Virus record (IMG/VR): IMGVR_UViG_3300008459_000031
Coordinates: 7,631-71,630 of that record
Strand: one strand, 5' to 3'
Length of the DNA: 64,000 bases
From: a virus
The notes under the pieces are model-generated. The model worked only from the letters and a program-made list of their open reading frames with translations, did not search any database and had not been told where the DNA came from. A program made the translations under genes and the position numbers. Shown piece by piece: positions 11,305 to 25,900 of this stretch. Position 1 is the first letter of the stretch. Every line of letters starts with the position of its first letter.

Positions 11305-14300
11305 TTATTTAGTTGATGTAGCAGGTAAGTCAAACCACTTAGCAGCTGTAGCTGGATCAGATGATTTTTCAATACCCCCTAATATTGGAATCATTGCTTC
11401 GAACTTAGCTAATAATTTGCTGTCCCCTTTTTGATGTATCCCAGACTTTCTTTGGTAGTATAACCCTTCTGTATCTCCTGTGAATATAGATGGGATAGCT
11501 TTGAATGCTACCATATCAACAAGCTCTATTGCTTTTGTAACAGGACGTACAGTTGCTGTAGGTGAGTTAGCAGCTTTTAAAAATTCTATAGGACGTACAA
11601 ACTGAGTTAATTCTGTCTGCATACGTAAAGCTTGATATATTGCAAAGCTTTCAAACCATGAATCATCTTCATCATCATCATCTGATAGTGACATTACAAT
11701 CAAAGCACATAGAGTCCAGAATGCAATAGATACTACAGATCTTCTCATGTTCTGCTTCTCCATGTCTGTCATCATCTTATAAACTTTAACACCATTACCA
11801 GCATTCTTATAAGTCTCTTTTATGAATCTCCATAGAGTTTCCATTGTACCTTCTGAGATAGTACCTAATTCTAAGTCACGATGAATACCACCACGAAGAC
11901 CGTTATGTCCATAATGTTTACGAAGAGATGGGATAAAGTAACGACGGAATAACATAATCAATTTACCATACCATCTTCTTTGAAGAATAGCATCATCGAA
12001 TTTAGTTTTAACCTGGTTGGTTCTTTTGTTTATCCCTGATATCTTAGCCATAAATCTACTTCTATTGAAGTTGGCTACTTTAGGATCTACTCCGTATCTA
12101 CCAGTTTTTTCATCTTTAACAAATACATCCCAAAGATTTGCATCTTCTCCTTTCTCATTTTTAATTACGTTTCCATCTTTGTCTTTAAGCTTTCCTCTAT
12201 AGCTATCCATTAAAGCAAGCATTCTAGTAACTGCTGTCTCATGTTCAGCAATAGTTTGTAATGCCATTGGACCTTCTTGTAAAAGCTTTAACATTCGTGG
12301 ACCAGTCTTGTCTTCTTTTGTAGATCCTAGTACTTCCCCTAATGCATCAAAGTATCTAATAGCTTGCACTATTTTAGTTTGTGGAGCAAAGGTTTTAAAG
12401 TCTTTCAATGATCCTAATCCACCTTCACTAGTTAAGTGGTAGATACCCTTAGCCCAAGTCATGTTCTTTTTATTAAAGAACTGTTGTGAGTGTGCTTCTT
12501 CCATCAAACGTACGTTATCGAGTAACATCTGATTAGTAGATTGAAGTAAGTTACCAGCTAAGTTTGCAAGAGCAGTATAAGATGCTACTTTATTTGATAA
12601 TTTATTTGATGATATTTGCTTACCAAATATGTTTAAAGCAGATTTAAGTTCTTCTTCCCCAAAGAATATTTTATCAATCCATTCTGATAAGTGCTTAAAG
12701 TTATTTCCACCTTTACCAGCAGTCTGCATTTTAGTTCCTTTTAAGATCTTTGACATTCTGTGTAAAAGTGGATTGTTGTCAGCTGTTACTGCTAATACTT
12801 CTCTTTCTTGTATGATGTCTCTCATTAACATAACAGAGCCGACAATTTCAGATTTACTCTTAAACATGTTGGCCATTCCTCCAAAGAGAATTAACGAGCT
12901 AGCTACGTCTTTACTTACTAGTTTAGAATCTACAGGATTTGTGTAGAAGATAGGAATTGTTTTATCTCTAGCTTCTTTGTTAGCATTAATAACATCTCCG
13001 TAGTTTACATCAGTAGATAGGAATTGAAACGAATCTTTAACAAAATCTTTAGCTGCTGTAAAAGCTCCATCTTTTTGTACTTTCTCTAATCCTTCTGATC
13101 TAACTGATGGTACTATATAACTAAACTTATCCCAAGAGTTTTTAGCAAGACTATTCTGCCCTAACATCTTCTGCTTTTTGTAGTAGAAGTTCATCATGGC
13201 TTTATAGTAAGTAAATGCAGGAGCATTATTTTTTAATGCCTCATATTTAGCATTTTTATACTTATCATTAGGACGTACTGCTGAAATCTTCCACTGCTCA
13301 TTTATAGGATCATACATCTTATCCATCAAAGATTTTAGTGAAGATTGTTCCCCTTCTAAATATTGAATCTTATCTGGATCTATAAGAGCTGCATCTTTTG
13401 ATTTCTCTTCTACTAATTTTTTACGTACATTTTTAAGCTTCTCTGATAGTACATTATACTTTTCTTGAGAATCTTTACTTGGTACAGAGTTTTCTTTATA
13501 CCATTTAGCAACTTCTTTATAGTATTCTCTTACAGTAGATTTATTTTTTAACCACTCTTGTATCTCTTCGTCACCCTTCTCTGGTTTATTATACTTTGTA
13601 GCTAAATCTGCATACATTTTAGATTCAGCATTCTTATATCTAGTGACATCAAATTCTTGTACAAATGAAAGAAGAGTTACTTTCTCTGACTTTTCTTTAT
13701 CAGGATTGTAAACCATGTATTCAACTTCTTCTAAAATATCTTCGTTGAATTTATTAGGATTTAAACCACTTCCTTTTGCTTTCTCAAATTCTTTATAAGC
13801 TGCAGCTAGTTCATAGATATCATTCTGTGTCTCATCATTTGCTTGATACATTTTATCTTTAAGCATAGATGCAAACATTTGTATCCCTACTTGAGAAGAA
13901 TAAATAATTGGATCTAGAAGATAACTAAATGCAGACTTATCTTTTTGAGCTTCAGTAAGTTCTTTGATTAATGTATCTCTTGTAATCAGCTTATTTTCTA
14001 ACTGCTTTATATTCAATGCTTTTAATGCAGCAAACTCATCAGCTTTATCTAGCTTTTGAGATTTTATTTTATTGTACTCCTCATCTCTTTCAATAGCTAC
14101 TAAACGATCATTGTCTTTGATATTTTGTATGAGTTTATTAATCTCATCATTTATATCATCGTTTGAATATTCCATTAGCAAGTCAGCCATAAGTGGGATA
14201 CCTACTTCTCTATAGGTTTCCTCCACCATATTCATTCTATGTATAGCTTCAGTAATTTTCTTTTCAAATAATGAAAGTGATTTAAATTTAGGGTCGTCTT

Positions 14301-15852
14301 GTAACTGTTCTACACTTAAACCTTTTTTAAGTCTTAACAAGTCTTTTGAAACTGCAAAACCAATTTTTTGCATTATACTATCTTTCCCATCTACTCCACC
14401 ATAAAAGCTTCTTACCCATTCACTTACTTTGTATAATTCATGAATAAGCTGTAATCTTTCTGTGGTAGGAAGAACTTCATTATATCTCTCATTAATTTTA
14501 TCTAAGTTTTCTTCAGCTCTGTCTGCAAGTCTAGATGCATAATTTACAAACTCTACTAATTCTTCTACATCTTGAATCTTATCAAGTCTTTTCTGCATGA
14601 GAGATAATCTTTCTATTGCAGTTTCATTTAAATCACCAGGAGTACTTTTAAGTTTGTTGATGCTCTCTTGTGTTGCAATACGAACATCATCTACAATCTT
14701 CATGAAGTCTTCTTCTCTCTTATTTACTTTACTATCAGCCATTAAGAAAGTAATAGAACCTTTTAAATCTGCAGCAGTATATCTTCTTTCTAGAAGCATA
14801 CGTGTCAGATCTTCAACTGCAGATGGTTTAGCCTCTGTACCAAATAACTTTGATAATGCTCTTACAACTCTATTAAATATTCTTTGGAAGAGATTAGGGT
14901 TTTCTCTTTTAATCTTAGCCCCACTTAATCCCATAGCAGATACTAGAACTTCTTTATTTAAAGCTTTCTCATCTAGTTCTGGGTATGCTTCTTTAACTTT
15001 TTGATAAAGATTAGTAGACTTCAATTCATTTATAGCTCTTACTACTACAGGATGATCTTCCCCTAAAAGTTCTACAAGAATATGACTGAATTCGTGGATA
15101 TGAGTATCCTCAGTCATAAGTAGTGGATTTAGAACAACTGTTAATATTTTACCTGGAGTGTTAATAACTCTACCTTTTACTTCTAGAGTAGGGTCAATTT
15201 TAACTTCTATGTTTATCCCAGCTTTAGCAAAGTCAGATATAAAATTGTTAATATCTTTTTGTATAGAAGGCATCTCTGCTCTTTCCATATCTTCAAGATC
15301 TAAACGACTATCTAAATCTTCGAATAAATCTAGTTGTTTTCCAGCTTCTCTAGATAATTTTTTTGTTAGTTCTTGTTCAGCTTTTGCTATGCTCAACTCT
15401 TCTTTACTTAATTCAATTACTCTTGGTCTAAGTATAGGGTTAAATTCATAAGCATTTAGAGCAAACTCATATGGATCTACTCTGTTAGGTAACTTAGTGG
15501 CTACATTTTTAGTCAGAGCTAGAGTTGCTTTTTGAGAAATTTGGACATCGTAATGAGTCTTACCTTTATCTTTATATGGGGTTATTACTGCAAGTGGAGT
15601 AGGAGAACCATAATATAAGGCTGCTACTGCATTTAAATCTGCTATCTCTTGAAATAGAACATCTTGCATAGTAACCGATATCCTATTCCCAAGACCTATA
15701 ACACCATCATTAAGAAGAATGTAATTGATCGTATAAGGATCTACTACATCGTTATTTGCTAACTGATTATCTATGTATTCAATAACCTTACTAGTCGTAG
15801 GAGATTTTCTTACATTTCCGTTTTCGTCTGTTTTAAAGTATCCACATGCCAT
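11305..15852 (-). CDS. giant virion/ejection protein with N-terminal zincin-like metallopeptidase motif
   Basis: HIHEFSH (HExxH) plus downstream KEVLV; hydrophobic segment near C-terminus; adjacent to virion RNAP. Confidence 0.7.
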   Translation of the reverse strand: MACGYFKTDENGNVRKSPTTSKVIEYIDNQLANNDVVDPYTINYILLNDGVIGLGNRISVTMQDVLFQEIADLNAVAALYYGSPTPLAVITPYKDKGKTHYDVQISQKATLALTKNVATKLPNRVDPYEFALNAYEFNPILRPRVIELSKEELSIAKAEQELTKKLSREAGKQLDLFEDLDSRLDLEDMERAEMPSIQKDINNFISDFAKAGINIEVKIDPTLEVKGRVINTPGKILTVVLNPLLMTEDTHIHEFSHILVELLGEDHPVVVRAINELKSTNLYQKVKEAYPELDEKALNKEVLVSAMGLSGAKIKRENPNLFQRIFNRVVRALSKLFGTEAKPSAVEDLTRMLLERRYTAADLKGSITFLMADSKVNKREEDFMKIVDDVRIATQESINKLKSTPGDLNETAIERLSLMQKRLDKIQDVEELVEFVNYASRLADRAEENLDKINERYNEVLPTTERLQLIHELYKVSEWVRSFYGGVDGKDSIMQKIGFAVSKDLLRLKKGLSVEQLQDDPKFKSLSLFEKKITEAIHRMNMVEETYREVGIPLMADLLMEYSNDDINDEINKLIQNIKDNDRLVAIERDEEYNKIKSQKLDKADEFAALKALNIKQLENKLITRDTLIKELTEAQKDKSAFSYLLDPIIYSSQVGIQMFASMLKDKMYQANDETQNDIYELAAAYKEFEKAKGSGLNPNKFNEDILEEVEYMVYNPDKEKSEKVTLLSFVQEFDVTRYKNAESKMYADLATKYNKPEKGDEEIQEWLKNKSTVREYYKEVAKWYKENSVPSKDSQEKYNVLSEKLKNVRKKLVEEKSKDAALIDPDKIQYLEGEQSSLKSLMDKMYDPINEQWKISAVRPNDKYKNAKYEALKNNAPAFTYYKAMMNFYYKKQKMLGQNSLAKNSWDKFSYIVPSVRSEGLEKVQKDGAFTAAKDFVKDSFQFLSTDVNYGDVINANKEARDKTIPIFYTNPVDSKLVSKDVASSLILFGGMANMFKSKSEIVGSVMLMRDIIQEREVLAVTADNNPLLHRMSKILKGTKMQTAGKGGNNFKHLSEWIDKIFFGEEELKSALNIFGKQISSNKLSNKVASYTALANLAGNLLQSTNQMLLDNVRLMEEAHSQQFFNKKNMTWAKGIYHLTSEGGLGSLKDFKTFAPQTKIVQAIRYFDALGEVLGSTKEDKTGPRMLKLLQEGPMALQTIAEHETAVTRMLALMDSYRGKLKDKDGNVIKNEKGEDANLWDVFVKDEKTGRYGVDPKVANFNRSRFMAKISGINKRTNQVKTKFDDAILQRRWYGKLIMLFRRYFIPSLRKHYGHNGLRGGIHRDLELGTISEGTMETLWRFIKETYKNAGNGVKVYKMMTDMEKQNMRRSVVSIAFWTLCALIVMSLSDDDDEDDSWFESFAIYQALRMQTELTQFVRPIEFLKAANSPTATVRPVTKAIELVDMVAFKAIPSIFTGDTEGLYYQRKSGIHQKGDSKLLAKFEAMIPILGGIEKSSDPATAAKWFDLPATSTK

Positions 15853-15856
15853 AGTA

Positions 15857-15864
15857 CAAATATA
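15857..15864 (-). promoter_or_regulatory. -7 promoter box TATATTTG
   Basis: TAnnTTTG 4 nt upstream of the ATG at 15852. Confidence 0.6.
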
Positions 15865-15869
15865 CGGTA

Positions 15870-18800
15870 TTATATTGAGCAGGACATATTTCCAGCTTCA
15901 ATTGGTAATTTTCCTCTGTCTAATAAATAAGTAGTGCTTCTTGCTATGTTGTTCTTTATTTGAGGAAGTACTTCTTTATTTTGAATCTTCATATAATTTA
16001 ACCCATAAAGCTTCACACTACCTTTAGTTGTATACGTACCTTCTAATCTTCCGTATTGAGTCATAATAGATCCATCTCCAGATTTTACTTGGTCTAACTT
16101 AGCAAATACTGCACTTGTACCAGTCTTACGATTTCTTACTACTATAAAGTTATCAGTGCTCTTATCTAAAATAGTCTCTGTTCCTGAAGAAAGTGTATCA
16201 TTACTAACCCTTTTAACTAAGTTACTTCCACCAGCTCTCATCTTTCCAAATGCAGCCATGTAGTTAATAATGTCTTGTGAATCAAAGTACTGAGATTGTC
16301 TAGCTTTAAATGCTTCTTGTCTGAAGAAATCTAAAATGCTTATTCTATCTTGTACTTCTACTCCAGGTTCTGATGGGCCTTGCTCAACCTTCATAGGAGT
16401 TGTGAAGAATTCTAGAGGAACAATATCAGCATATGAACTAGCTCCTTGTCTAAATCCATTTACAAAGAAGCTGTGCATTGCTAGTTTTATAGCAAAGAGT
16501 TTGACTTCTCTTATACCAGCAGCAACTGATGGATCAGTATAGTTACCTTCACTATCCATTGTTTTATCTCCTGGTACATAGAATTGTGGGTTATACAGTA
16601 GATTATACAATCCGTCTGTATAAGATTGCTTTTCAGTTGCAGTAGCTTTAAATGTATTATCAAACTTAATTCCATAGTATCTAGCTTCTGTATCTGTATC
16701 AGGTTCTAAGTTAGCTATGAATGGGTTTGTATTCAATGCACGATACTTTGTTTTTAAAGCTTGTAATTTTGTATAAATATTATTATCTGGCTTATTATAC
16801 AAGTTTGTCATGCTATCCATCAAAGAAGCAAATGGAGAGCCAGGTTTCATAAGCATCATGAACATCAAGTTGTAATCAATCAACTGATGCATTTCAGGAG
16901 TTAACTCTTCAGTACTTACATTCCCTAGTAGCCCTTTCTTAAATAGTTTAAAAGATTCAGATAATCTAGTAGGGAAGAATACTCCTGCAAAGTCAAGACC
17001 GTTTCTTAATAGATTATCGTAACCTCTTTCTAATCCATAATTAGACTTCTCACCGATAAATTGGTCAGTGACATTATCCATAGACCCTGGTTCAAAGAAT
17101 ATTGGAGTCTTTAGAGAATCTTCATTCTGATCAAATGTATTAGCTCTATCTAAATAAGATTGTATAGAACCTATCCTTCCCAATCCATCCATTGAATCTG
17201 GGGTTACTCTCTTCCCTAGTTTCATAAGAGTTTTACCAGCTTCATAGAACTTCATGAAGTTAGCAAGCATCTTTAATTGTTCATCTACATTTCTATTCTC
17301 TTTACTTAAGTTTTCTAATTCTTCTACATTCATGTTAAATGTACCGGGCTTATTTAGATTTAAGTAGCCATTTGGATCTTTTAGTTTAGAAGTAAAAATT
17401 TTATAAGCTGTTGTAAGATTCATCAAATTACCAGCTTCGGTGGTCTCAAAGTAATTTGTAAATTCTTTAACCAATGGTTGATTTAAGAACAAAGAACAAA
17501 GTCTTGAAGAATACTCTGGGAAGAATCCTGAGAATAAAATTCTGATACGAGATGTTAAAACTGTATCGTTAAGTTCATATTGTACGGGAAACTTAGCAGC
17601 ATCCACAGCAGCAGATAAGAATAATGATATGCTTTTATCTGTTGGATAAGATCTGCTTGTAGTATCAAATGGATTTTCATAAGAAGTCTTTATATAATCT
17701 CTATATTCCTCTCCATTAATTTTGATAGAGTAATCGTTATGTATTCTAACATTACCATGTTGTAATACGTTACGTGCAGCTAGTGCATTTGCATAGATAC
17801 CACGAAGCTTATTTCCAAGAGTACTACGACGAGCTGTAATAGCTTCTGTGTTATAATCACTCCAATCTAATTCTTTTCCAAGGTCTGGAGATTTAGATTT
17901 AATCTCATCTACAACAGTATTCAATGTAGTATCATCAAGTGGAGTAAACACTTCTTTGAAGTGAGCAGGGTTTGAATACACTGCCTCCATCAAATCTAAT
18001 ATTACATTATTAATCTGTTCATTAGACAACTTCGATAAGTTCTTTGATTTTATTATACTAGCATAATCTACAGATACTTTTTCTAGTTGTTTAGTTTCTT
18101 TATTAACTCTAACTTCTGGGAATAAGAGATTTAACTTATCGACGTCAAAGTCAGATCCCATCAATTTAGTTAGCTGTCCCGGTACAACAACTGCTTTTGC
18201 ATAGTTGTTCGGTAAGATTTTAGCAATCTTAAGCATGACTACAGAAGCTTTATCCTGATTAGGGATACGATAACCTACAATTCTTCTAAGTTCTTCTGGG
18301 ATAGAGTCTAAAGATTGTCCTGGTTGTATTCCAAACTTACGAGCTACATCCTCACGGATCATAACTTCTGCATGGATTACTCTTCTACCATCTTCAGATA
18401 TTTGTAAGAACTTTAATGCACCACTTCCATCAACTTCTGATCCACCTAATTGTGTAACCTGAACTGCTTCAAACCCTTTAACTTTCTGTTTGAATACTTC
18501 ATTGTTTATTACAGACATTATGATAGACTCATACTTCTTATTGTATAGAGGTATATCAAGTGGAGCTACAAATCTAGGAGTACCATCATTTTCAAATACA
18601 ATATCTAAAGCTCTTTCATAGTTAGAGTGAAGCTCTTTTGTTCTAGCTTGCTTGAGTACTTTTTCTCTTACAGTTTTTAATATATCTAACTTAGCTGCAT
18701 TTATCTTATTGATATCATTGCTTTCAGAAGCTTTATAAAGCTCAGTTAATCCAAATTCATCTTCAACCTTCTTTGTATCTCTAGCAAGTTTCTCTTCTAT

Positions 18801-21800
18801 TGAAGCATGATAAAGATCTTTTAAATCTTGACCTGAGATATTTATATCTAAAATTCCAGGAGAGATTTGGTACATGGTAGCATCTTCAACATTGGCCACC
18901 ATATTTTTTTTAATCTGACGGTTGAGAGCATTTTTTGGATCTTCTTTTGCAGAAGGGATAAATTGTGGGAATCTTAATCCTGATGAATTATGAGTATTAA
19001 CTCCTGCTTCTCCTAGCATTCCCAATCTACCTGTATGTCTATAGATATTTCTCTTAGATAGCTTTTTACCAGATACAAAGTTTACTACATGCACTGGCTC
19101 TAAACCTGTATATTCTTCTACAGATTCCATTCTTCTTCGTATATCTTCTAAGAATGGAGAATTTTTAGTATAAGATTTTAATAGTACGAAGTAAGAGTTC
19201 TTTTGAGAATCAACAGATAATGTTCTTCCAACATTGTTGTAAGACATTTTTTCGTAGTATCCTTTATGTCCTAATGTTGGAACAGGATCCCCAACTTTTT
19301 TACCATCAGGAACAAATCCTTTTTGATATACAAACTCTCCTGTTACCTTATATGCTTTATAAGCTTCTTCATCTTCTCTCTCCCACTTCCCTAAACCTTG
19401 CATAATGCTTCTATGCATATCTAAGCTAATGAAAGCCTGAGCATCTGTAGATTCGTATTTACCTGGCCTAAATGCATCAGAAATTGTTTTAGCCTCTTCT
19501 TCAGAAACACCACTTTTAACTAGCCCAATATATATGTTATCAGCTTGAGCATTTGTTTCTACAGTTTGTTCTGGAGTAAGATTCATTCTGATATCTCTCA
19601 TAGCAATCTCATTGAACTCTTTCATCATTCCATAAGATTCACTAATGTCTCCAACCATAACCATTTTGGTTCCAGGAGTAGTCAAGTGACCCATACGTTT
19701 GTAGAAGTCTTCTTGACTTTTATGTAGAGCTCTATTTCCACGGAATAGTTTTACTATTTCGTTTCTCATAATAGCATTCTCTACTACAAATCCTTTTAGC
19801 AAGCCTTTTAGATCTACTCCGATAGCTCCACTCATTCCAATCTCTCCTAATTTTTTTGCTTTCTTTAACTCTGCCTCTAAAGCTAAAGCTTGAGAAGAGA
19901 AGTATTCAAGCATCTCATTAGTCATTCTATCTAAACGAGCATCAAATAATTTCTGAGATTCTGCATCCATAGACTTATCTACATAATCCATGATCTTATC
20001 ACTCATCTGAGTTACTCCATTAATCCTTACTCCAGGATCATCTTGCAGAGTTTCATCTGTTACTATATATTTACCATCAGCATTCTTAGCTCTAAACTGG
20101 AAGAAAGATTCTTTGAATGCATTACCAAGGTATTGACCATTCTCTACTAATCTTGTTGGATCTCCAGAAGCTGTATGATAACCTTCTTCTAAATCTGCAT
20201 AATCTATTTTACCATTCAAGGCACTTTTTACAACTGCTTTAGCTTGGTTTACTCTCACTAAGTCTTGTACAATTTGAGCTTTAATCAAATCTTTATGAGA
20301 CATAAATTGTTTAGAGAAAGCATTCTTGCTAATTCTAGGTACTTTTACAAATGTAAATTTGTCACGGTCTGATTGAATTGGTACAGCAATATATGTATAT
20401 TCACTATCTGTTCTGTTATTTATAAAAGCATTTATAAGAGTAACCATTGTATCGACTTCTGAAAAGTCTTCATATGCAAGAGCCTCTTCATATTCTGACC
20501 CCATCTTACTTGCATCAAAGTCAAATACCCCAAACTCTTCTAAAAACTTGCCATCCATTAGATGCTTAAATAATACACTTGTAAACTCAGGTCTCCCTTT
20601 TACATTTATGAATTCATCTTTAAGATATTCTTTTAGAAGTTCTGCAGAGTTTTGAGATTTCTCTTTCAATATACTTACAATCTGAGCCATATGTGTCTCA
20701 GTGTTTGTACCGTAAATTGCTTTTCCCTTTCCATTAACAAAGCTGATACCTGCAATAGGCATAGTTGATTTGAATATCTTTGCAAAATCTATAGCTGCAG
20801 ATTTACGAGCAGTTATAAAATCTAAGTTTCTATCATTCTTTACAGATACAAATTCAGCAAGTTCTGAAGATTTGTCTCTAGTAAACTCTCCTACTTGACG
20901 AATGAATGACAGAAGTTGAGTTTTAATAGTTCTCATAGAATCTACTCCTGTCTTACCGTCTATTCCATTATCAGCAATAACTTGTAATATCTTTTGAGTA
21001 TCTCCTACATTAGTATTATCTCCTATGTATAATCCTAATTGAAACATAGTTTCTGCTAAATGAACTACAACAGGATTTACTTGTCCATTTATATTAGCCA
21101 CATTTACATTACCAAATTTTGGTAATAACTTCTCAGCTTCTTTCCAAGCTTTTGCAGCATCTAGTACTCTCTTTTTATTTGTAGTAAGGGTCTCTATAAC
21201 TGTCCCATCTTCTTTAGTGATGATGTCTTTTCTATATAAGGCCATTCCATCTACTTCAGAAATAAGTGTATTTTTCCACTTCTCTGCAATAGCTGTTGGA
21301 ATGTCTTTACGATTAGGATTGAAGACTTCAACATAGTTTACTTTATCATCTACCTTTTGTTTTAGCATTACAAATTCAGTATTGCTAAGTGCAAATGCAG
21401 AGAATATCATAGCCTTTTCAGACTCTGTTAATTCGTTTAAGAAGTTAAGAACATTTCTTAATTGAGGCTTTAACTTAACTTCTTGTACAAGAGCATTCCT
21501 CATTGCAGTATAAGTCTGCTTACCACTAAATATGTTTAATAACTCTTTGAATACAACATCTCTATTTAAGTATGTTTTAACACCTAAGCTATTATATTCA
21601 TTTGACATAATAGTAGATAGCAATTCTCTTACTCTTGCCGTAAGTCTTTTTGCAGGGCTAATCTCCATACTACTTTGTCCATATATTTTTCCTACTGCTT
21701 CATCTATGATTGCAAATTCATCGTTCAATTGATCTAATTCATCTTCAGCTTCTGAAGGAGTTTCTAGATCAGTATCGTATTTAAACTTAGAATCAATGTA

Positions 21801-22973
21801 TATACCAGCATCTGTAAGTCTGTTTACTAAAGCTGTTCTCCAACCTTCTTGAATAATATTTCCAGATTTAGATTGTACTACATCTTCCCAAGTGGTGTAT
21901 ATGTTTTTATAAACTGTTCTCTTACGTAGATTGTCCCCCATTGCAAAAACTAAATTGTTTTTAGCAAGTACATCTCTAAGAGCTTGCAGATTTTCTTGAG
22001 ATTTATTTTCTGTATAGGCTTCTTCAGCAGCTATAGTTTCAATCATTGCAGCATAGTCTGTTGACATGTTTAATTTAGAACCATCTGCTTTAGCATATAT
22101 TTTTGTTAAGAATGAGTTTGCTATTGCTCCTTTATTAGTTCCAGATCCTAAAGCAATTGTAGATTCAAAACTATTTTTATAGCTATTTCTCATCTTTAGA
22201 AAGTCTGTATACAGAACATCGATAGCATCTGTAATAGTCTTATCTCCTAATCCAGGACGACTTAAGTATGCTTTTTTAGTTCCTTTAAACTTTTCTGCAT
22301 TTCTGAATACTCCTCTACCAAGAATAGAAGAGTTCATTTTATTACTTTCAATTAAAGAATAAACCTGCTTTAATCCAACACTGTCACTAAACATTGCTTT
22401 AATGAAGTTCCACAAATCTCTAAAGAACTTAGCAATCTTACCAGGAATAGACTTTTCAGTAGCTTGATCAGTAAGAACATACTCTCTGAATTCCTCAGAC
22501 ATTTTTTCTTCAAGAACTAACTTATAAGCATCTTCATCAGAAATTTCTGGGAATTGATTTTTAATAGCAGCTATTTCAGAGTCAGTAGGTTTTCCAAAAC
22601 TTTTCTCAGCTTCTGCATATAACCCTTGTCTTTGCTCTTCACTAAGCATTGTTCTAAATACTAAGTGATAAGCTTCGTGATACTCTGTACCAACTTCAGC
22701 AGCAGACCAAAGGTATATCGATGCATTCTCTACATATCCGTGAACTTCTTCATTTCCAACAGATTGTGCAGTCTCAAAGATATTTACAGCATCTTCTCCA
22801 AATCTTTCTGCTAACCAAGACTTTGCTTTATTAGATCTATCAGAATTATTTACATAAAACATTGAAGGAACATTCCCCATGTATTTATCCCAAAGGAAAT
22901 ATGCTAAGTTTTCACCTTGAACACTTACAAGGTCTTTCCATTCTTTAGATGATGTGTTTGGACAAAATGCCAT
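15870..22973 (-). CDS. virion-packaged RNA polymerase (crAss-like, phi14:2 gp66-type) with N-terminal zincin domain
   Basis: Catalytic GSDFDVDK, GYRIPNQ, TDAQAFI, KRMGHLTTPG; N-terminal HEAYH..EE. Confidence 0.9.
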   Translation of the reverse strand: MAFCPNTSSKEWKDLVSVQGENLAYFLWDKYMGNVPSMFYVNNSDRSNKAKSWLAERFGEDAVNIFETAQSVGNEEVHGYVENASIYLWSAAEVGTEYHEAYHLVFRTMLSEEQRQGLYAEAEKSFGKPTDSEIAAIKNQFPEISDEDAYKLVLEEKMSEEFREYVLTDQATEKSIPGKIAKFFRDLWNFIKAMFSDSVGLKQVYSLIESNKMNSSILGRGVFRNAEKFKGTKKAYLSRPGLGDKTITDAIDVLYTDFLKMRNSYKNSFESTIALGSGTNKGAIANSFLTKIYAKADGSKLNMSTDYAAMIETIAAEEAYTENKSQENLQALRDVLAKNNLVFAMGDNLRKRTVYKNIYTTWEDVVQSKSGNIIQEGWRTALVNRLTDAGIYIDSKFKYDTDLETPSEAEDELDQLNDEFAIIDEAVGKIYGQSSMEISPAKRLTARVRELLSTIMSNEYNSLGVKTYLNRDVVFKELLNIFSGKQTYTAMRNALVQEVKLKPQLRNVLNFLNELTESEKAMIFSAFALSNTEFVMLKQKVDDKVNYVEVFNPNRKDIPTAIAEKWKNTLISEVDGMALYRKDIITKEDGTVIETLTTNKKRVLDAAKAWKEAEKLLPKFGNVNVANINGQVNPVVVHLAETMFQLGLYIGDNTNVGDTQKILQVIADNGIDGKTGVDSMRTIKTQLLSFIRQVGEFTRDKSSELAEFVSVKNDRNLDFITARKSAAIDFAKIFKSTMPIAGISFVNGKGKAIYGTNTETHMAQIVSILKEKSQNSAELLKEYLKDEFINVKGRPEFTSVLFKHLMDGKFLEEFGVFDFDASKMGSEYEEALAYEDFSEVDTMVTLINAFINNRTDSEYTYIAVPIQSDRDKFTFVKVPRISKNAFSKQFMSHKDLIKAQIVQDLVRVNQAKAVVKSALNGKIDYADLEEGYHTASGDPTRLVENGQYLGNAFKESFFQFRAKNADGKYIVTDETLQDDPGVRINGVTQMSDKIMDYVDKSMDAESQKLFDARLDRMTNEMLEYFSSQALALEAELKKAKKLGEIGMSGAIGVDLKGLLKGFVVENAIMRNEIVKLFRGNRALHKSQEDFYKRMGHLTTPGTKMVMVGDISESYGMMKEFNEIAMRDIRMNLTPEQTVETNAQADNIYIGLVKSGVSEEEAKTISDAFRPGKYESTDAQAFISLDMHRSIMQGLGKWEREDEEAYKAYKVTGEFVYQKGFVPDGKKVGDPVPTLGHKGYYEKMSYNNVGRTLSVDSQKNSYFVLLKSYTKNSPFLEDIRRRMESVEEYTGLEPVHVVNFVSGKKLSKRNIYRHTGRLGMLGEAGVNTHNSSGLRFPQFIPSAKEDPKNALNRQIKKNMVANVEDATMYQISPGILDINISGQDLKDLYHASIEEKLARDTKKVEDEFGLTELYKASESNDINKINAAKLDILKTVREKVLKQARTKELHSNYERALDIVFENDGTPRFVAPLDIPLYNKKYESIIMSVINNEVFKQKVKGFEAVQVTQLGGSEVDGSGALKFLQISEDGRRVIHAEVMIREDVARKFGIQPGQSLDSIPEELRRIVGYRIPNQDKASVVMLKIAKILPNNYAKAVVVPGQLTKLMGSDFDVDKLNLLFPEVRVNKETKQLEKVSVDYASIIKSKNLSKLSNEQINNVILDLMEAVYSNPAHFKEVFTPLDDTTLNTVVDEIKSKSPDLGKELDWSDYNTEAITARRSTLGNKLRGIYANALAARNVLQHGNVRIHNDYSIKINGEEYRDYIKTSYENPFDTTSRSYPTDKSISLFLSAAVDAAKFPVQYELNDTVLTSRIRILFSGFFPEYSSRLCSLFLNQPLVKEFTNYFETTEAGNLMNLTTAYKIFTSKLKDPNGYLNLNKPGTFNMNVEELENLSKENRNVDEQLKMLANFMKFYEAGKTLMKLGKRVTPDSMDGLGRIGSIQSYLDRANTFDQNEDSLKTPIFFEPGSMDNVTDQFIGEKSNYGLERGYDNLLRNGLDFAGVFFPTRLSESFKLFKKGLLGNVSTEELTPEMHQLIDYNLMFMMLMKPGSPFASLMDSMTNLYNKPDNNIYTKLQALKTKYRALNTNPFIANLEPDTDTEARYYGIKFDNTFKATATEKQSYTDGLYNLLYNPQFYVPGDKTMDSEGNYTDPSVAAGIREVKLFAIKLAMHSFFVNGFRQGASSYADIVPLEFFTTPMKVEQGPSEPGVEVQDRISILDFFRQEAFKARQSQYFDSQDIINYMAAFGKMRAGGSNLVKRVSNDTLSSGTETILDKSTDNFIVVRNRKTGTSAVFAKLDQVKSGDGSIMTQYGRLEGTYTTKGSVKLYGLNYMKIQNKEVLPQIKNNIARSTTYLLDRGKLPIEAGNMSCSI

Positions 22974-22976
22974 TGG

Positions 22977-25900
22977 TTATTTATTTGTAATACATTTATT
23001 TTTCTTTCTCTCCCCTTCTTCAGCAGATTCTTTTATTACGTCTGATAAGCTTTGCATAGCTCCACCCATTGGATTCAAGCCTCTTAGTTCTGCTTCCATC
23101 TCTGCTTTAAGAGCTTTTTGCATTTCTGCATTAGGCTTTAAGTGTGCAAAAGGGTTAGAAGGGTCCATCAAAGGTACAGATTTTTGTTCAGTTTTTGGAG
23201 CAGCACCAAATAAATCTGCAGGTAATTCATCAACAACTACATCTAAAGTAGATTGTGCAACTGGGGCAGGAGCTGCCGGTGTAACAACAGCTGGTGTTGT
23301 GGGTTGAGTTTGAGTTTTAGAAAGTGATCCAGGTCCGTAGAAAGATTTAGCATTGTATATCACATAAAAAGGATCTACTTTTTGTTTACCAATTATATGA
23401 TTTAAAACTTTAACTCCTTTTACTTCAGGGTTTGATTTCTGAAAATCATTGAATAGGTTTATAATTGCAGGACTTTGATTTGCTTTTTCTGTATCATTGT
23501 ACTCAGCATCAGGATTGTCAGATATGTAAGATCCTGTAGCTGGATTGCTAAATTTATAACCTTTTGCTTTTAGCTCTTCATAAATTTCTTTCTCAGATTT
23601 ATTAGCATCTATAACTATAAACTCAGATTCATTTATCTCACCTGCAATTGGCTGACCATATCTTTGAACAAGGAATGGAGTAGTAGTAGAAGATGCATTT
23701 AAGCCATCTCCAAACTGGCTGATTTGATCTTTACCTCTTTGGAAATTACCAAAATCAAAGTTTTGTGGAGCAACACTTGTGTGATGATACACAGTAACTA
23801 CATTTTCTGGTGTTGTAGTTGCAGGTATTGCATTATCAGCAAGCCTAACAATTCTTAATATTCCATATTTAGAATCATTAGGTTCTTCAAAAACACCATT
23901 TTCATCTATAGCATCGATAGTTTGAATACCTCCAGCTTGATTTTTGTAATCCAAACTTGTAGAAGCCCCATCATATCTTATACCTTCAATTTTTGTAGTT
24001 GCCTCAGAAGTTCTTTTGCTGCTACTTGCTGTAATAATTATAGTATCACCTACTTTCCAAGTAGAAGGTGAGGCTTTTTGAGCAGGAGCTAGTGTTGCAG
24101 GAGCAGTAGGGGCTTCGATGCTATCTAATACTTTTACAGCATTTGATACTTCTAATTGAGCTTGAGTTGCAATTCCTCCTCCAACACCTGTTAATGGTGT
24201 GAATTCAATTCCAACATCATAGAATGGGGATTTGTTAACACTGCCTGGAGAGTCAGTAGTTAAGATTACATTAGCCCCTAGTCCTTCAGTTCTAGGTTCT
24301 GTGAATTCTTTATCACTATTTAAGTAATCAAAGTATGAAGGATACTCAATACCAGTAAGAGCACTAATATAAGGTTCTGTGTTATTAATTCTATTGATAT
24401 CAACTTGATACTTCTTATCCATAATAATGTCTAAGAATTCTTGTTTTAAGTTTGGAGTTACTCTTGCATACTCAGCTTTCTCTCCTTTTATTGTAACTAG
24501 AGATTTCCATCCTTTTTCGTTAGTACCTAGCTCAGAGAATGTGAACTTAAATGGTTGCCCTAGTAAAGCTTTCTTAAGTTCATCTTCATTTATTCTGACA
24601 AGTTTGTTTGCAGATTTAGAGTAGAAAGTAAATAATACTTTACCATCTGTAAGAGTAACTTGAGACATGTATTTCTTAAAGTCTTCTGTAGATATGTCTT
24701 CCCCTTCATTTAAATCTATTGCATCGTTTTCATCTGCAACTTCTACAGGAAGTTTATTTAATCCTACAATCTCCCCGAATAGTTGAGCCTCAGGGTTTTC
24801 CTTAATTAAATGATTAACTGCAATTGTTCTTCCTTCTTCAGTCATAGACTTTGTAGAAGCCATTACAAGAGCAGGATTACCATTAGGATCTTTTACTATA
24901 ATTGCTACTTGTCCAAGTGCAACATTGCTTGTATCGAATGGTAGATCATTTCCATTCTGATCCATGAAGACTCGAATACCATCTTGAATTCTTACTACAG
25001 CAATATTTGAAGAACCTTTTACAATGTTTGAAGATGGATAGAAGAATATCTGACCATTAGATGTTCTAGCATTAGCTATATTCGTAGAGTTAAAAAGCTT
25101 TCTACTAATAGTAGAAGATGCAGTAATTCCTTGCTTATAAAGATTATATATGTCTTGTCTAGATAATCCAGTATTCTCATCTGCTTTATAAGCAGCTAAC
25201 ATTCCTACTCTAACTGATTGACCATTAGGAAGTTGGGCAACTACGTAGATAGGAACTTGTTCCCAATATCTATCTTCTGTTAAATCTTTTTTGTTATTTT
25301 TTGTTTCAGGATTTTCAGAATTCCACCAATCACTAGATTCATCTACTTCAAATGTAATGACTGTACCTGCAGGAGTTATGTCACTATCTGTTAGCATTTC
25401 TGGATAAATAGAGACAGTCTCTCCACCTACCTTTTGCTCTATCATATTAGATACAGGATCTCCAGATTCAGTTACAGTTTGCTCTGTAAAATTAGAGTTA
25501 GATTTAATTTCCCCTTTAGCAAGTGGAGCATCTACAGGACCTTCTGCAACTACAGCAGTTACTTGTGGTTCTTCAGGATCTTTTTGATCATCGTCGAATG
25601 GAGATGGAGTCTCATTAAATGTTCTTTCTATCTGCTCCCACTGCTCTCTTTTCTGACGGATTATTTCAAGTTCTTCTGCTGTGGTTGTGCCATCCACCCC
25701 TTCCTCCGTAGATCCTGCTCTAGAATCGATATTCGTTGCTTCAGGCTCTTGCCCTTCAGTTGCAATGTCAGTTCCTTCGGTAGCGTTACTTGCTTGACGA
25801 AGTTTTTCAGATTCACGTTCTTCATTTATTCTTTGTATTAGTTCTTTAGATTTACGAATACTCTCTTCCCTTCTCTTAATCTTATTCTGAGTATTTCTAA

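What the first reader, a model, noticed from the sequence alone, without database searches (positions are those of the whole stretch)
15844..22994. Three giant ejection proteins carry Cys at their facing ends: possible head-to-tail disulfide-linked ejection chain
Seen in sequence: by my count the 2222-, 2367- and 1515-aa proteins (6104 aa in total) contain only 6 Cys, and four are at the gene junctions. The only Cys of the 2222-aa protein is 5 residues from its C-terminus (KNKCITNK*, codon 22992-22994). The RNAP begins MAFCP (22962-22964) and ends MSCSI* (15879-15881). The 1515-aa protein begins MACG (15844-15846). The free ends (N-terminus of the first protein, C-terminus of the last) have no Cys, and the neighbouring 791-aa cargo protein has none at all. 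Established: crAss-like virions package these proteins and are thought to eject them unfolded through the tail. Inference: terminal Cys pairs join the separately translated proteins (disulfide or metal bridge) into an ordered P1-RNAP-P3 train that is threaded out in sequence and released in the reducing host cytoplasm. I do not know of this being described.
Basis: partly seen in the sequence, partly recalled or inferred. Interest (0 to 1): 0.85.

Follow-up and report, generated by a model that had tools for sequence, protein, structure and literature searches.

The report
Terminal cysteines chain crAss RNAP proteins
Three giant proteins of this crAss-like phage, with its particle-borne RNA polymerase in the middle, are almost free of cysteine except for one at each end that faces the next protein, and relatives keep such a pair at every gene break, which points to untested disulfide links joining the proteins end to end.

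Summary
The three proteins hold 6 Cys in 6104 aa, against 1.16% Cys in 36 other window ORFs. Four of the six lie 2-4 residues from the facing ends. The chance that random placement puts a Cys in all four ends is about 1e-9.

The pattern is a rule across crAss-like phages. In 54 non-redundant lineages, 56 of 56 junctions between adjacent giant genes carry one Cys on each side. Free chain ends lack it, and single-polypeptide forms have none. It holds in phi14:2, crAss001 and DAC15. In the last two, P1 is encoded on the other strand.

The break lies at different places, before or after the zincin motif. Split or fused state changes at least 6 and 4 times on a quick tree.

Best reading: tail-to-head disulfide staples linking P1, RNAP and P3 in the virion. 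This is inferred, not shown. Cryo-EM of cyanopodophage A4 shows such a bond, gp27 Cys1715 to gp26 Cys5, and its genes have the same sequence signature.

I found nothing in print for crassviruses. This scan has noted the same pattern on other genomes: the words search listed 128 notes holding my search words, and the 8 shown all described it.

The parts
22977..29645 (-). P1, 2222 aa. It is a homologue of crAss001 gp47, a virion cargo protein. Its only Cys is residue 2218.
   Evidence: BLASTP against crAss001 gp47, E 1e-24
22992..22994 (-). Cys2218 codon of P1, 4 residues before the C-terminus
15870..22973 (-). Virion RNA polymerase protein, 2367 aa: N-terminal junction module, zincin-like region, then a two-barrel RNAP core
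   Evidence: profile A1 hits PDB 6vr4_A, E 1.1e-17; tblastn hits crAss001 gp50, E 2e-23
22962..22964 (-). Cys4 codon of the RNAP protein
   Evidence: invariant column in alignments A1 and A4
22854..22973 (-). N-terminal 'CPN' junction module, residues 1-40. The model gives an extended tail that carries Cys4, followed by two short helices.
   Evidence: HMM of the module: 49 N-terminal and 0 internal hits in all ORFs of 81 loci plus the window; AF2 blocks 1-40 have pLDDT 74-81; the same module heads the last protein in L033, L036 and L056
22665..22679 (-). HEAYH motif (residues 99-103) of the zincin-like region
   Evidence: no Pfam hit
18138..18152 (-). DFDVD catalytic motif (residues 1608-1612) of the RNAP
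15879..15881 (-). Cys2365 codon of the RNAP protein, 2 residues before the C-terminus
   Evidence: the only invariant column in the last ~50 columns of alignment A2
11305..15852 (-). P3, 1515 aa. It is a homologue of crAss001 gp49.
   Evidence: BLASTP E 5e-30; 577 relatives in the representative library
15844..15846 (-). Cys3 codon of P3
   Evidence: invariant in alignment A3
29666..32041 (-). Upstream 791-aa protein with no Cys. It is not part of the Cys-linked chain. Its position matches that of cargo protein 2, but homology is not shown.
   Evidence: BLASTP against crAss001 gp46, E 0.077; the homologous upstream ORFs in relatives have 0 Cys

Best explanation
P1 (gp47-like), the virion RNA polymerase (gp50/gp66-like) and P3 (gp49-like) are cargo proteins that have been purged of cysteine, like other ejected phage proteins. 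Each keeps exactly one Cys within a few residues of every end that faces the next protein.

In the assembled, oxidised virion these Cys form inter-chain disulfides: P1 Cys2218 with RNAP Cys4, and RNAP Cys2365 with P3 Cys3. The three polypeptides then behave as one near-linear chain, the covalent equivalent of the single polyprotein that other crAss-like phages encode.

Because each link sits at the extreme ends, the joint stays thin. That would let the chain stay together during packing and passage through the tail. The reducing host cytoplasm could then separate the parts.

Shown here: the sequence rule, its conservation, and its co-variation with gene breaks. Inferred: the bond itself, when it forms, ordered threading, and reductive release.
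For: 1. Window: 4 of 6 Cys in 6104 aa lie at the four facing ends, and none at the free ends.

2. In 54 non-redundant lineages (clusters of 81 loci plus the window), 56 of 56 junctions between adjacent giant ORFs have a Cys on both sides.
- C-side: 0-7 residues from the end. N-side: position 3-6. No side has more than one Cys in its 8 residues.
- The chains hold 192 Cys in 294,310 aa, and 111 of them are at facing ends.
- Controls: 13 of 232 other ORFs have a Cys in the first 8 residues and 13 of 232 in the last 8.

3. Free chain ends: 2 of 53 N-termini and 2 of 47 C-termini have a Cys. All four have a non-adjacent partner: link proteins in L019 and L066, the next ORF in L065, and inserted genes in L050.

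4. Fused forms lack the pair.
- P1-RNAP fusions such as L018 (3970 aa) or L041 (5131 aa) have one Cys, at the C-terminus.
- All-in-one forms L035, L042 and L069 have no terminal Cys.
- 19 of 32 giants of 3000 aa or more in an independent library have no Cys at all.

5. Extra breaks bring extra pairs. Small link proteins of 289, 167 and 131 aa each have exactly two Cys, one at each end.

6. The break lies 84-646 residues before the HExxH motif in the window's clade and 185-256 residues after it in crAss001, ZA, crAss002 and cr8_1. On a FastTree of the RNAP core the split or fused state changes at least 6 times (J1) and at least 4 times (J2).

7. The signal is at the protein level.
- crAss001 and DAC15 encode P1 on the opposite strand and keep the Cys.
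- Both TGT and TGC are used, and the spacing between genes ranges from -26 to +45 nt.

8. Independent gene calls: 78 of 81 stand-alone P3 homologues have a Cys in the first 8 residues, and 0 of 81 in the last 8.

9. phi14:2 has only 4 Cys in 5398 aa, all at the facing ends.

10. Precedent: cryo-EM of cyanopodophage A4 shows a disulfide between gp27 Cys1715 and gp26 Cys5 (PMC12002296, passages read). In the A-4L genome these are the only Cys of the 1717-aa and 1114-aa products of adjacent genes.

11. crAss001 virions do contain structural disulfides, in the tail and in gp57 (PMC10172136, passages).
Against: - No biochemical or structural observation of the bond exists in any crassvirus. The three proteins gave no clear density in the crAss001 map (PMC10172136, section 10).
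- Sequence alone cannot exclude homodimers or links to a third protein.
- The host cytoplasm and the gut lumen are reducing, so the time and place of oxidation are unknown.
- One exception: in L073 the 131-aa link protein has an N-terminal Cys with no C-terminal partner upstream.
- In crAss001 gp50 the C-side Cys lies 8 residues from the end, just outside my 8-residue window.
- Three of 81 stand-alone-size P3 homologues have no Cys. They are 35-63% identical to the C-terminal parts of all-in-one polyproteins and may be fragments, but their context could not be fetched.
- The lineages are related, so the 56 junctions are not 56 independent events. Independence rests on the 10 or more state changes of a quick tree with some long branches.
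- Drobysheva et al. expect fused polyproteins to be cleaved into parts (preprint, section 8). If so, covalent continuity may not be needed after assembly.
Confidence: 0.72

Rival explanations
1. The facing Cys do bridge the proteins, but through a shared metal ion (Zn, Fe or Cu) rather than an S-S bond.
For: The pairing rule fits any two-thiol bridge.
Against: - Each side has exactly one Cys: 0 of 56 N-sides and 0 of 56 C-sides have a second Cys within 8 residues.
- No conserved His, Asp or Cys lies next to it in alignments A2 or A3. Tetrahedral sites normally need four ligands.
- Lineages with a single junction have only two Cys in the whole chain.
- The A4 precedent is a disulfide.
Confidence: 0.07
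2. The terminal Cys do not pair across the junction. Instead each forms a disulfide with another copy of the same protein (homodimers) or with a different virion component such as the portal-bound cargo protein or the capsid interior.
For: crAss001 virions hold several copies of each protein by volume estimate (PMC10172136, section 10). Sequence cannot tell partners apart.
Against: - The Cys always come in twos, one on each side of a break, and vanish together on fusion.
- Truly free ends of the chain never carry one.
- Link proteins carry one at each end.
- A third-party partner would need a matching number of free Cys, and that number varies from 0 to 3 pairs among lineages.
Confidence: 0.1
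3. The Cys serve a role without any cross-link, for example thiol modification, redox sensing, or a signal read during packaging or ejection.
For: The ~40-residue N-terminal 'CPN' module that carries the Cys is conserved and occurs only at N-termini. It may have a function of its own.
Against: - This does not explain why a C-terminal Cys on the upstream protein always accompanies the N-terminal one.
- It does not explain why the C-side tails share nothing but the Cys.
- The Cys position floats (0-7 from the C-end, position 3-6 from the N-end), which is unlike an enzyme recognition site.
Confidence: 0.06
4. The pattern has no function. It is inherited chance, a scar of how the genes were split (for instance decayed inteins, which begin with Cys and are followed by Cys), a nucleotide-level signal at gene junctions, or mis-called starts.
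For: - A decayed intein would leave Cys plus a few residues upstream and a few residues plus Cys downstream.
- A GIY-YIG homing endonuclease gene sits in one junction (L019).
- crAss-like genomes are rich in inteins and introns (PMC7886860, section 11).
Against: - The Cys survive at 22-25% identity in proteins from which nearly every other Cys was removed.
- Both codons are used, and spacing and frame vary.
- The pair persists when the genes are on opposite strands.
- Pfam found no families at all, and so no Hint or intein family, in the five large proteins scanned.
- Independent gene calls give the same N-termini.
- In A4 the N-terminal Cys5 is seen in the mature protein.
Confidence: 0.03

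Closest known systems
Cyanopodophage A4 (Anabaena phage A-4L) ejection proteins gp27 and gp26: Cys1715-Cys5 disulfide in the pre-ejectosome (PNAS 2025, PMC12002296; passages read)
   Same: - The genes of large internal or ejection proteins are adjacent.
- The upstream protein's only Cys lies 2 residues from its C-terminus, and the downstream protein's only Cys is at position 5. This is the same signature as at both window junctions.
- The neighbouring gp29 has no Cys.
- The bond is seen inside the capsid.
   Different: - No credible sequence similarity to the crAss proteins: one phmmer hit of 11.8 bits.
- There is one link, not a chain of two or more, and no RNA polymerase is involved.
- The partners are folded in a five-fold ring, with a gp27 helix lying in a gp26 cleft. 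That is not necessarily a thread.
- In the passages I read, the paper does not state a rule that ties the Cys to gene breaks.
RNA-polymerase cargo block of cultured crassviruses: phi14:2 (GenBank tags gp078-gp077-gp076; gp077 = the gp66 of PDB 6VR4) and crAss001 gp47, gp50, gp49
   Same: - The proteins are homologous.
- They were found in virions by mass spectrometry (PMC10172136, section 10; phi14:2 annotation).
- The terminal Cys pattern is the same.
   Different: - In these phages the P1/RNAP break lies after the zincin motif, not before it.
- crAss001 encodes gp47 on the other strand.
- The papers I could read do not mention these cysteines: 0 occurrences of 'cysteine' in PMC10172136 and in the Drobysheva preprint.
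Cysteine suppression in ejection proteins of Schitoviridae (N4 gp50, DEV gp71-gp73; PMC11445570, passages read)
   Same: A giant virion RNA polymerase and its operon partners are almost free of Cys. The authors relate this to passage through the oxidising periplasm.
   Different: - In Schitoviridae the proteins have essentially no Cys at all, and the RNAP is one polypeptide.
- Here single Cys are kept precisely at the facing ends of split proteins.
- The all-in-one crAss polyproteins with zero Cys are the true parallel.

Membership tests
crAss-like virion RNA polymerase module (phi14:2 gp66 / crAss001 gp50 with gp47-like and gp49-like partners) | DFDxD catalytic motif of a two-barrel RNAP in a giant virion protein | tested here: met
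   DFDVD at residues 1608-1612, window 18138-18152
crAss-like virion RNA polymerase module (phi14:2 gp66 / crAss001 gp50 with gp47-like and gp49-like partners) | Sequence similarity to the solved gp66 and to crAss001 gp50 | tested here: met
   Profile A1 against PDB: 6vr4_A, E 1.1e-17, the only hit. The single sequence found nothing. tblastn against crAss001 gp50: 24.3% identity, E 2e-23.
crAss-like virion RNA polymerase module (phi14:2 gp66 / crAss001 gp50 with gp47-like and gp49-like partners) | Flanking proteins homologous to gp47 and gp49 | tested here: met
   P1 against gp47, E 1e-24. P3 against gp49, E 5e-30.
crAss-like virion RNA polymerase module (phi14:2 gp66 / crAss001 gp50 with gp47-like and gp49-like partners) | Proteins packaged in the virion and delivered to the host | not testable with these tools
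   Known for phi14:2 and crAss001 only. Inferred here by homology.
Tail-to-head disulfide between consecutive ejection proteins (A4 gp27-gp26 type) | A Cys within a few residues of the C-terminus of one protein and of the N-terminus of the next, in otherwise Cys-poor proteins | tested here: met
   Window. A-4L. The window proteins also have two internal Cys (1826 and 1382).
Tail-to-head disulfide between consecutive ejection proteins (A4 gp27-gp26 type) | S-S bond observed in the virion | not testable with these tools
   Needs non-reducing gels, disulfide mapping or cryo-EM.
Tail-to-head disulfide between consecutive ejection proteins (A4 gp27-gp26 type) | Homology to gp27 and gp26 | tested here: not met
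   phmmer of A-4L gp26, gp27 and gp28 against all giants and 150 P3 relatives gave one hit of 11.8 bits. The resemblance is in mechanism, not in family.
Cys-suppressed ejection proteins (Schitoviridae type) | Cys frequency far below that of the phage proteome | tested here: met
   0.098% against 1.16%. Chains of 54 lineages: 0.065%.
Cys-suppressed ejection proteins (Schitoviridae type) | Cys essentially absent throughout | tested here: not met
   One Cys is retained at each facing end, at 56 of 56 junctions.
Zincin-like metalloprotease domain | HExxH motif within a recognisable zincin domain | tested here: inconclusive
   HEAYH is invariant in A1 and A4. There is no Pfam hit. The AF2 model is only moderately confident (mean pLDDT 59) and was not searched against structures.
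Split intein / protein trans-splicing | Hint-domain halves flanking the junction | tested here: not met
   Only 0-7 residues follow the C-side Cys, and 2-5 residues (Met included) precede the N-side Cys. No Pfam family was found.

The most novel reading that the evidence does not exclude
Paired terminal cysteines are a general, evolvable substitute for a peptide bond in phage cargo.
- Whenever a giant ejection polyprotein is cut, at any position and sometimes beside a homing-endonuclease gene, a Cys pair restores covalent continuity in the virion. Modules such as the ART-like link, the zincin region, the RNAP and P3 can then be shuffled as beads on a disulfide string.
- Reduction in the host cytoplasm then works as the release or activation switch for the RNA polymerase.
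- The same device arose independently in cyanopodophage A4.
- It could also explain how the heavily fragmented RNAP genes of zeta-group crassviruses yield a working enzyme. I could not test that here.
Probability: 0.3. Interest if true: 0.85.

Novelty: new variant of a known kind. Interest (0 to 1): 0.72.

Why it matters
Crassviruses are the most abundant viruses of the human gut. How they pack, order and deliver about 0.7 MDa of RNA-polymerase-associated cargo per copy is open. Bayfield et al. state that the order of extrusion probably depends on how the proteins are packed and interact (PMC10172136, section 11).

A covalent tail-to-head chain would give a simple physical answer for stoichiometry and order. 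It would explain why these genes can be split or fused freely in evolution. It would also suggest a redox-controlled release of the polymerase.

The hypothesis can be tested directly with existing cultured phages (phi14:2, crAss001, DAC15), using non-reducing gels and disulfide mapping.

The rule also has a practical use for annotation. It predicts true start codons, for example in crAssphage ZA and crAss002. It also flags which neighbouring giant ORFs belong to one functional chain.

Tried and rejected
Structure prediction of the RNAP C-terminal 200 aa with the P3 N-terminal 200 aa (alignments A2 and A3, complex prediction) gave no verdict: scores 0.08 and 0.26 against a mark of 0.32. I take it as no evidence either way.

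An AF2 model of RNAP residues 1-250 had mean pLDDT 59. I used only the better N-terminal part and ran no fold search on it.

Pfam found nothing in the five large proteins. PHROGs gave only families of unknown function for P1 and none for the RNAP or P3.

Readthrough at junction 1. In the window, the P1 stop and the RNAP start are in one frame, separated by TAA CCA. I rejected readthrough because relatives have gaps of 1-15 nt in other frames.

Nucleotide-level signal: rejected (and the opposite-strand genes).

Split intein or scar: rejected (see the rival explanations).

Context of the three Cys-less P3-size proteins (P0049, P0053, P0148).
- The search for related loci found no relative in viral contigs or in metagenome contigs.
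- Local BLAST showed P0049 and P0148 to be 63% and 44% identical, over nearly their full length, to the C-terminal parts of all-in-one polyproteins. P0053 is 43% identical over most of its length and 35% over its full length. Whether they are fragments or true Cys-less splits stays open.

Zeta-group test. The Lera genome (PV725988, named in PMC12386605) is not in the phage collection, so fragmented zeta RNAP genes were not examined.

Rows dropped from counts.
- 37 of 150 representatives were set aside because they were shorter than 1000 aa or did not start with M.
- junctions were counted only between ORFs of 1000 aa or more that lie less than 60 nt apart. L071's start was moved to the first ATG after the upstream stop.
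- only 57 rows with a findable DFDxD motif and enough flank were used. The J2 state of 5 truncated loci was left uncounted.

Papers.
- PMC10172136: passages and sections 10 and 11 read.
- Drobysheva preprint (10.1101/2020.03.07.982082): term search and section 8. The journal version (PMC12127119) is not held.
- PMC11445570 and PMC13434306: passages.
- PMC12002296: passages.
- PMC7886860: term search and section 11.
- PMC10136315, 10.1101/295642 and PMC8042965: term search only.
- PMC12386605: passages.
- Of the 7 papers, four were seen only as a listing.
- Supplements were closed. The mass-spectrometry tables of PMC10172136 (reduced against unreduced samples) may bear on the claim, and I could not see them.

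Full report
**Observation.**

The minus strand carries three consecutive giant ORFs:
- P1: 22977-29645, 2222 aa.
- RNA-polymerase protein: 15870-22973, 2367 aa.
- P3: 11305-15852, 1515 aa.

Together they hold six Cys: P1 2218; RNAP 4, 1826 and 2365; P3 3 and 1382. The free ends and the upstream 791-aa protein have no Cys.

Thirty-six other ORFs of the window average 1.16% Cys, so about 71 Cys would be expected in 6104 aa. With six Cys placed at random, the chance that all four facing ends receive one is 1.6e-10 for 5-residue ends and 1.1e-9 for 8-residue ends. This test is post hoc.

**Identity of the proteins.**

- Pfam finds nothing, and PHROGs only families of unknown function.
- A profile of the middle protein and four relatives (A1) hits one PDB chain, 6vr4_A, the virion RNA polymerase of crAss-like phage phi14:2 (E 1.1e-17). 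The single sequence found none.
- The DFDVD motif lies at residues 1608-1612 and an HEAYH motif at 99-103.
- tblastn finds 88 phage records, all below 60% identity. They include crAss001 gp50 (E 2e-23), crAss002, DAC15 and phi14:2.
- P1 matches crAss001 gp47 (E 1e-24) and P3 matches gp49 (E 5e-30).
- The 791-aa protein has no significant BLAST match to gp46.
- gp47, gp49 and gp50 were detected in crAss001 virions. They are thought to leave through the tail partly unfolded (PMC10172136, sections 10 and 11).

**Conservation.**

Two scans of IMG/VR gave 81 loci. In the second scan, 143 stretches encoded a relative and the best 80 were kept. Together with the window they fall into 54 clusters.

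Among cluster representatives there are 56 junctions between adjacent ORFs of 1000 aa or more. All 56 have a Cys within 8 residues on both sides:
- C-side distance from the end: 0 to 7 residues, with counts 14, 14, 13, 6, 5, 3, 0, 1.
- N-side position: 3 (25 junctions), 4 (23), 5 (5), 6 (3).
- No side has a second Cys in its 8 residues.

The chains hold 192 Cys in 294,310 aa (0.065%), of which 111 sit at facing ends. Of 232 uncurated control ORFs from the same loci, 13 have a Cys in the first 8 residues and 13 in the last 8.

Free chain ends carry a Cys in 2 of 53 N-termini and 2 of 47 C-termini. All four are explained:
- L065: the next, truncated ORF starts with a Cys at position 3.
- L066: a 167-aa link protein follows.
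- L019: a 289-aa link protein precedes.
- L050: P1 is separated from its partner by inserted genes.

The link proteins of 289, 167 and 131 aa each have exactly two Cys, one at each end.

One exception remains. In L073, the N-terminal Cys of the 131-aa link has no C-terminal partner upstream.

**Fusion test.**

- Where P1 and the RNAP are one ORF (for example L018 with 3970 aa, L020 with 3743 aa, L033 with 4512 aa, L041 with 5131 aa), the fused protein has a single Cys, at its C-terminus. That Cys faces the Cys of the next protein.
- Where everything is one ORF and no same-strand gene follows (L035, L042 and L069), there is no terminal Cys. L042 has no Cys in 5286 aa.

**Independent sample.**

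A search of 1.84 billion representatives with P3 residues 1-1200 gave 577 hits, of which I examined the best 150. I set aside 37 that were shorter than 1000 aa or did not start with M.
- 81 are of stand-alone size (1000-2600 aa). Of these, 78 have a Cys in the first 8 residues and none has one in the last 8. The median is one Cys per protein.
- 32 are giants of 3000 aa or more. Of these, 19 have no Cys at all, and 7 begin with a Cys at position 3-5.
- The 3 exceptions have no Cys. They are 35-63% identical to the C-terminal parts of all-in-one polyproteins: P0049 and P0148 over nearly their full length, P0053 over its full length at 35%. They are probably fragments, but their context could not be fetched.

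**Cultured phages.**

- phi14:2 has only four Cys in 5398 aa: the last residue of gp078, residues 3 and 2179 (of 2180) of gp077, and residue 3 of gp076.
- crAss001: gp47 has Cys 2339 of 2341; gp50 has Cys 5, 1334 and 2404 of 2412; gp49 has Cys 5.
- DAC15 shows the same pattern.
- In crAss001 and DAC15, P1 is encoded on the opposite strand from the other two genes. The signal therefore belongs to the proteins, not to a gene junction.
- In crAssphage ZA, crAss002 and cr8_1, P1 ends with a Cys 1 residue from the end, and the RNAP-P3 fusion has no C-terminal Cys.
- For ZA and crAss002 the annotated starts put the first Cys at positions 24 and 35. An in-frame ATG two codons before it gives the usual Met-Ser-Cys start.

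**Independent breaks.**

- Relative to the HExxH motif, the P1/RNAP break lies 84-106 residues before it in most of the window's clade. It lies 268, 455, 630 and 646 residues before it in L062, L078, L015 and L009.
- It lies 185-256 residues after the motif in crAss001, ZA, crAss002 and cr8_1.
- The RNAP/P3 break lies 710 to 1737 residues after the DFDxD motif.
- On a FastTree of 57 RNAP cores (611 columns) the split or fused state changes at least 6 times for the first break and at least 4 times for the second. This tree is quick, has some long branches and has no bootstrap.
- Cys codons are TGT in 98 cases and TGC in 14. Intergenic distances run from -26 to +45 nt.

**The N-terminal module.**

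- 28 of 63 downstream N-termini share a ~40-residue module that begins with Met, 0-3 residues, then Cys-Pro-Asn.
- An HMM of the module hits 49 N-termini and no internal site in all ORFs of the 81 loci and the window.
- The same module heads the RNAP protein in the window and heads the last protein in L033, L036 and L056. It therefore goes with the break, not with a particular protein.
- An AF2 model places Cys4 in an extended tail (residues 1-9) before two short helices. pLDDT is 74-81 for residues 1-40 and 59 overall.
- In the C-terminal tails nothing but the Cys is conserved.

**Mechanism.**

The simplest reading is one disulfide per break, which joins the C-terminal tail of one protein to the N-terminal tail of the next. 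That makes the split proteins the covalent equivalent of the polyprotein found in other lineages.

- Having exactly one Cys per side fits a 1:1 bond better than a metal site.
- Placement at the extreme ends keeps the joint thin.
- crAss001 virions do contain disulfides, in the tail and at the portal vertex (PMC10172136).
- Suppression of Cys in ejected proteins is known from N4-like phages and is ascribed to passage through the periplasm (PMC11445570).

A lead from earlier notes of this scan took me to PMC12002296, which I read in passages. In cyanopodophage A4, cryo-EM shows a disulfide between Cys1715 of gp27 and Cys5 of gp26 inside the capsid.

I then checked the A-4L genome:
- gp27 (1717 aa) and gp26 (1114 aa) are adjacent genes.
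- These two Cys are their only Cys.
- gp29 has no Cys.

So the sequence signature seen here corresponds to a real bond in one solved virion. The A4 proteins show no credible sequence similarity to the crAss proteins.

What remains inferred for crassviruses: the bond itself, when it forms, ordered threading, and release by reduction.

**Novelty.**

- 'Crassvirales, disulfide, ejection' found only Bayfield et al.. That paper has no occurrence of 'cysteine', and it mentions disulfides only for the tail and gp57.
- The Drobysheva preprint has no 'cysteine', 'disulfide' or 'Cys'. It notes that the three proteins are fused in some phages.
- Yutin et al. 2021 and a 2023 review have neither word.
- Of the 7 papers from 'crAss-like, cysteine, RNA polymerase, virion', two use the word only for culture media, one is the DEV paper, and four I saw only as a listing.
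- Supplements were closed.

The principle is therefore published for one unrelated phage. The order-wide rule in crassviruses, with the RNA polymerase in the chain and one pair per gene break, is not in print as far as these searches show.

The scan itself has noted the same pattern on other genomes. The words search listed 128 notes, in at least 120 genomes, that hold all my search words. The 8 shown all described this pattern.

**Verdict.**

- I class it as a new variant of a known kind.

Noticed in passing
window 22854-22973 (-); also the N-termini of the last protein in L033, L036 and L056: A ~40-residue N-terminal module (Met, 0-3 residues, Cys-Pro-Asn, then two short helices) occurs only at the N-termini of proteins that follow a break. 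The HMM gives 49 N-terminal and 0 internal hits. It heads different proteins in different lineages. It matches no Pfam family.
   Followed up: partly
L085:15286-27561 (crAssphage ZA, MK238400) and L086:15139-27876 (crAss002 gp33): The annotated starts (a non-ATG codon in ZA) put the first Cys at positions 24 and 35. An in-frame ATG at L085:15349 and at L086:15235 gives the usual Met-Ser-Cys start, so the annotated starts are probably too far upstream.
   Followed up: partly
L019:8255-8920: A free-standing GIY-YIG/NUMOD3 homing endonuclease gene sits exactly in a junction, between the C-terminal Cys of one chain protein and the next link protein. Mobile elements may create breaks in these genes, or may simply exploit them.
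   Followed up: partly
L019:8917-9786; compare window 23330-24115: The 289-aa link protein, which has a Cys at each end, gives a weak ART-PolyVal Pfam match (E 0.0022, below the cut-off). The module may be a separate bead in L019.
   Followed up: partly
window 17496-17498 (RNAP Cys1826) and 11707-11709 (P3 Cys1382): The two internal Cys are conserved in the near clade. RNAP Cys1826 is invariant in A1. The P3 Cys lies 131-134 residues from the C-terminus in WIN, L003, L005, L007, L008 and L012. They do not always co-occur (L012 lacks the RNAP one), and L009 and L017 lack both. Their role is unknown.
   Followed up: partly
window 22971-22979: The P1 stop (TAA) and the RNAP start are in the same frame, separated by one codon. 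Relatives have other spacings and frames, so readthrough is unlikely.
   Followed up: yes
window 32047-35949 (-): The 1300-aa protein upstream has four Cys arranged as two Cys-x11-Cys pairs (425/437 and 1003/1015). crAss001 gp45 has Cys390/398, and DAC15 gp59 has 211/219 and 273/281. This is a different, internal Cys pattern in the putative first cargo protein.
   Followed up: no
L073:3641-23990: This locus is the exception to the rule. A 5323-aa protein and a 766-aa protein have no terminal Cys. They are followed by a 131-aa link with a Cys at both ends and then a protein with Cys4. The partner of the link's N-terminal Cys is not evident.
   Followed up: partly
L085:29733-31012 and L088:28354-28623: Thioredoxin genes are annotated a few kb from the RNAP block in crAssphage ZA and cr8_1. 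Whether phage thioredoxin bears on reduction of the proposed links was not examined.
   Followed up: no
L089:25321-28497 (A-4L gp28): The A-4L ejection protein gp28 has only two Cys, 1036 and 1039, 22 and 19 residues from its C-terminus. gp29 has none. The whole A-4L ejection operon is Cys-poor.
   Followed up: no
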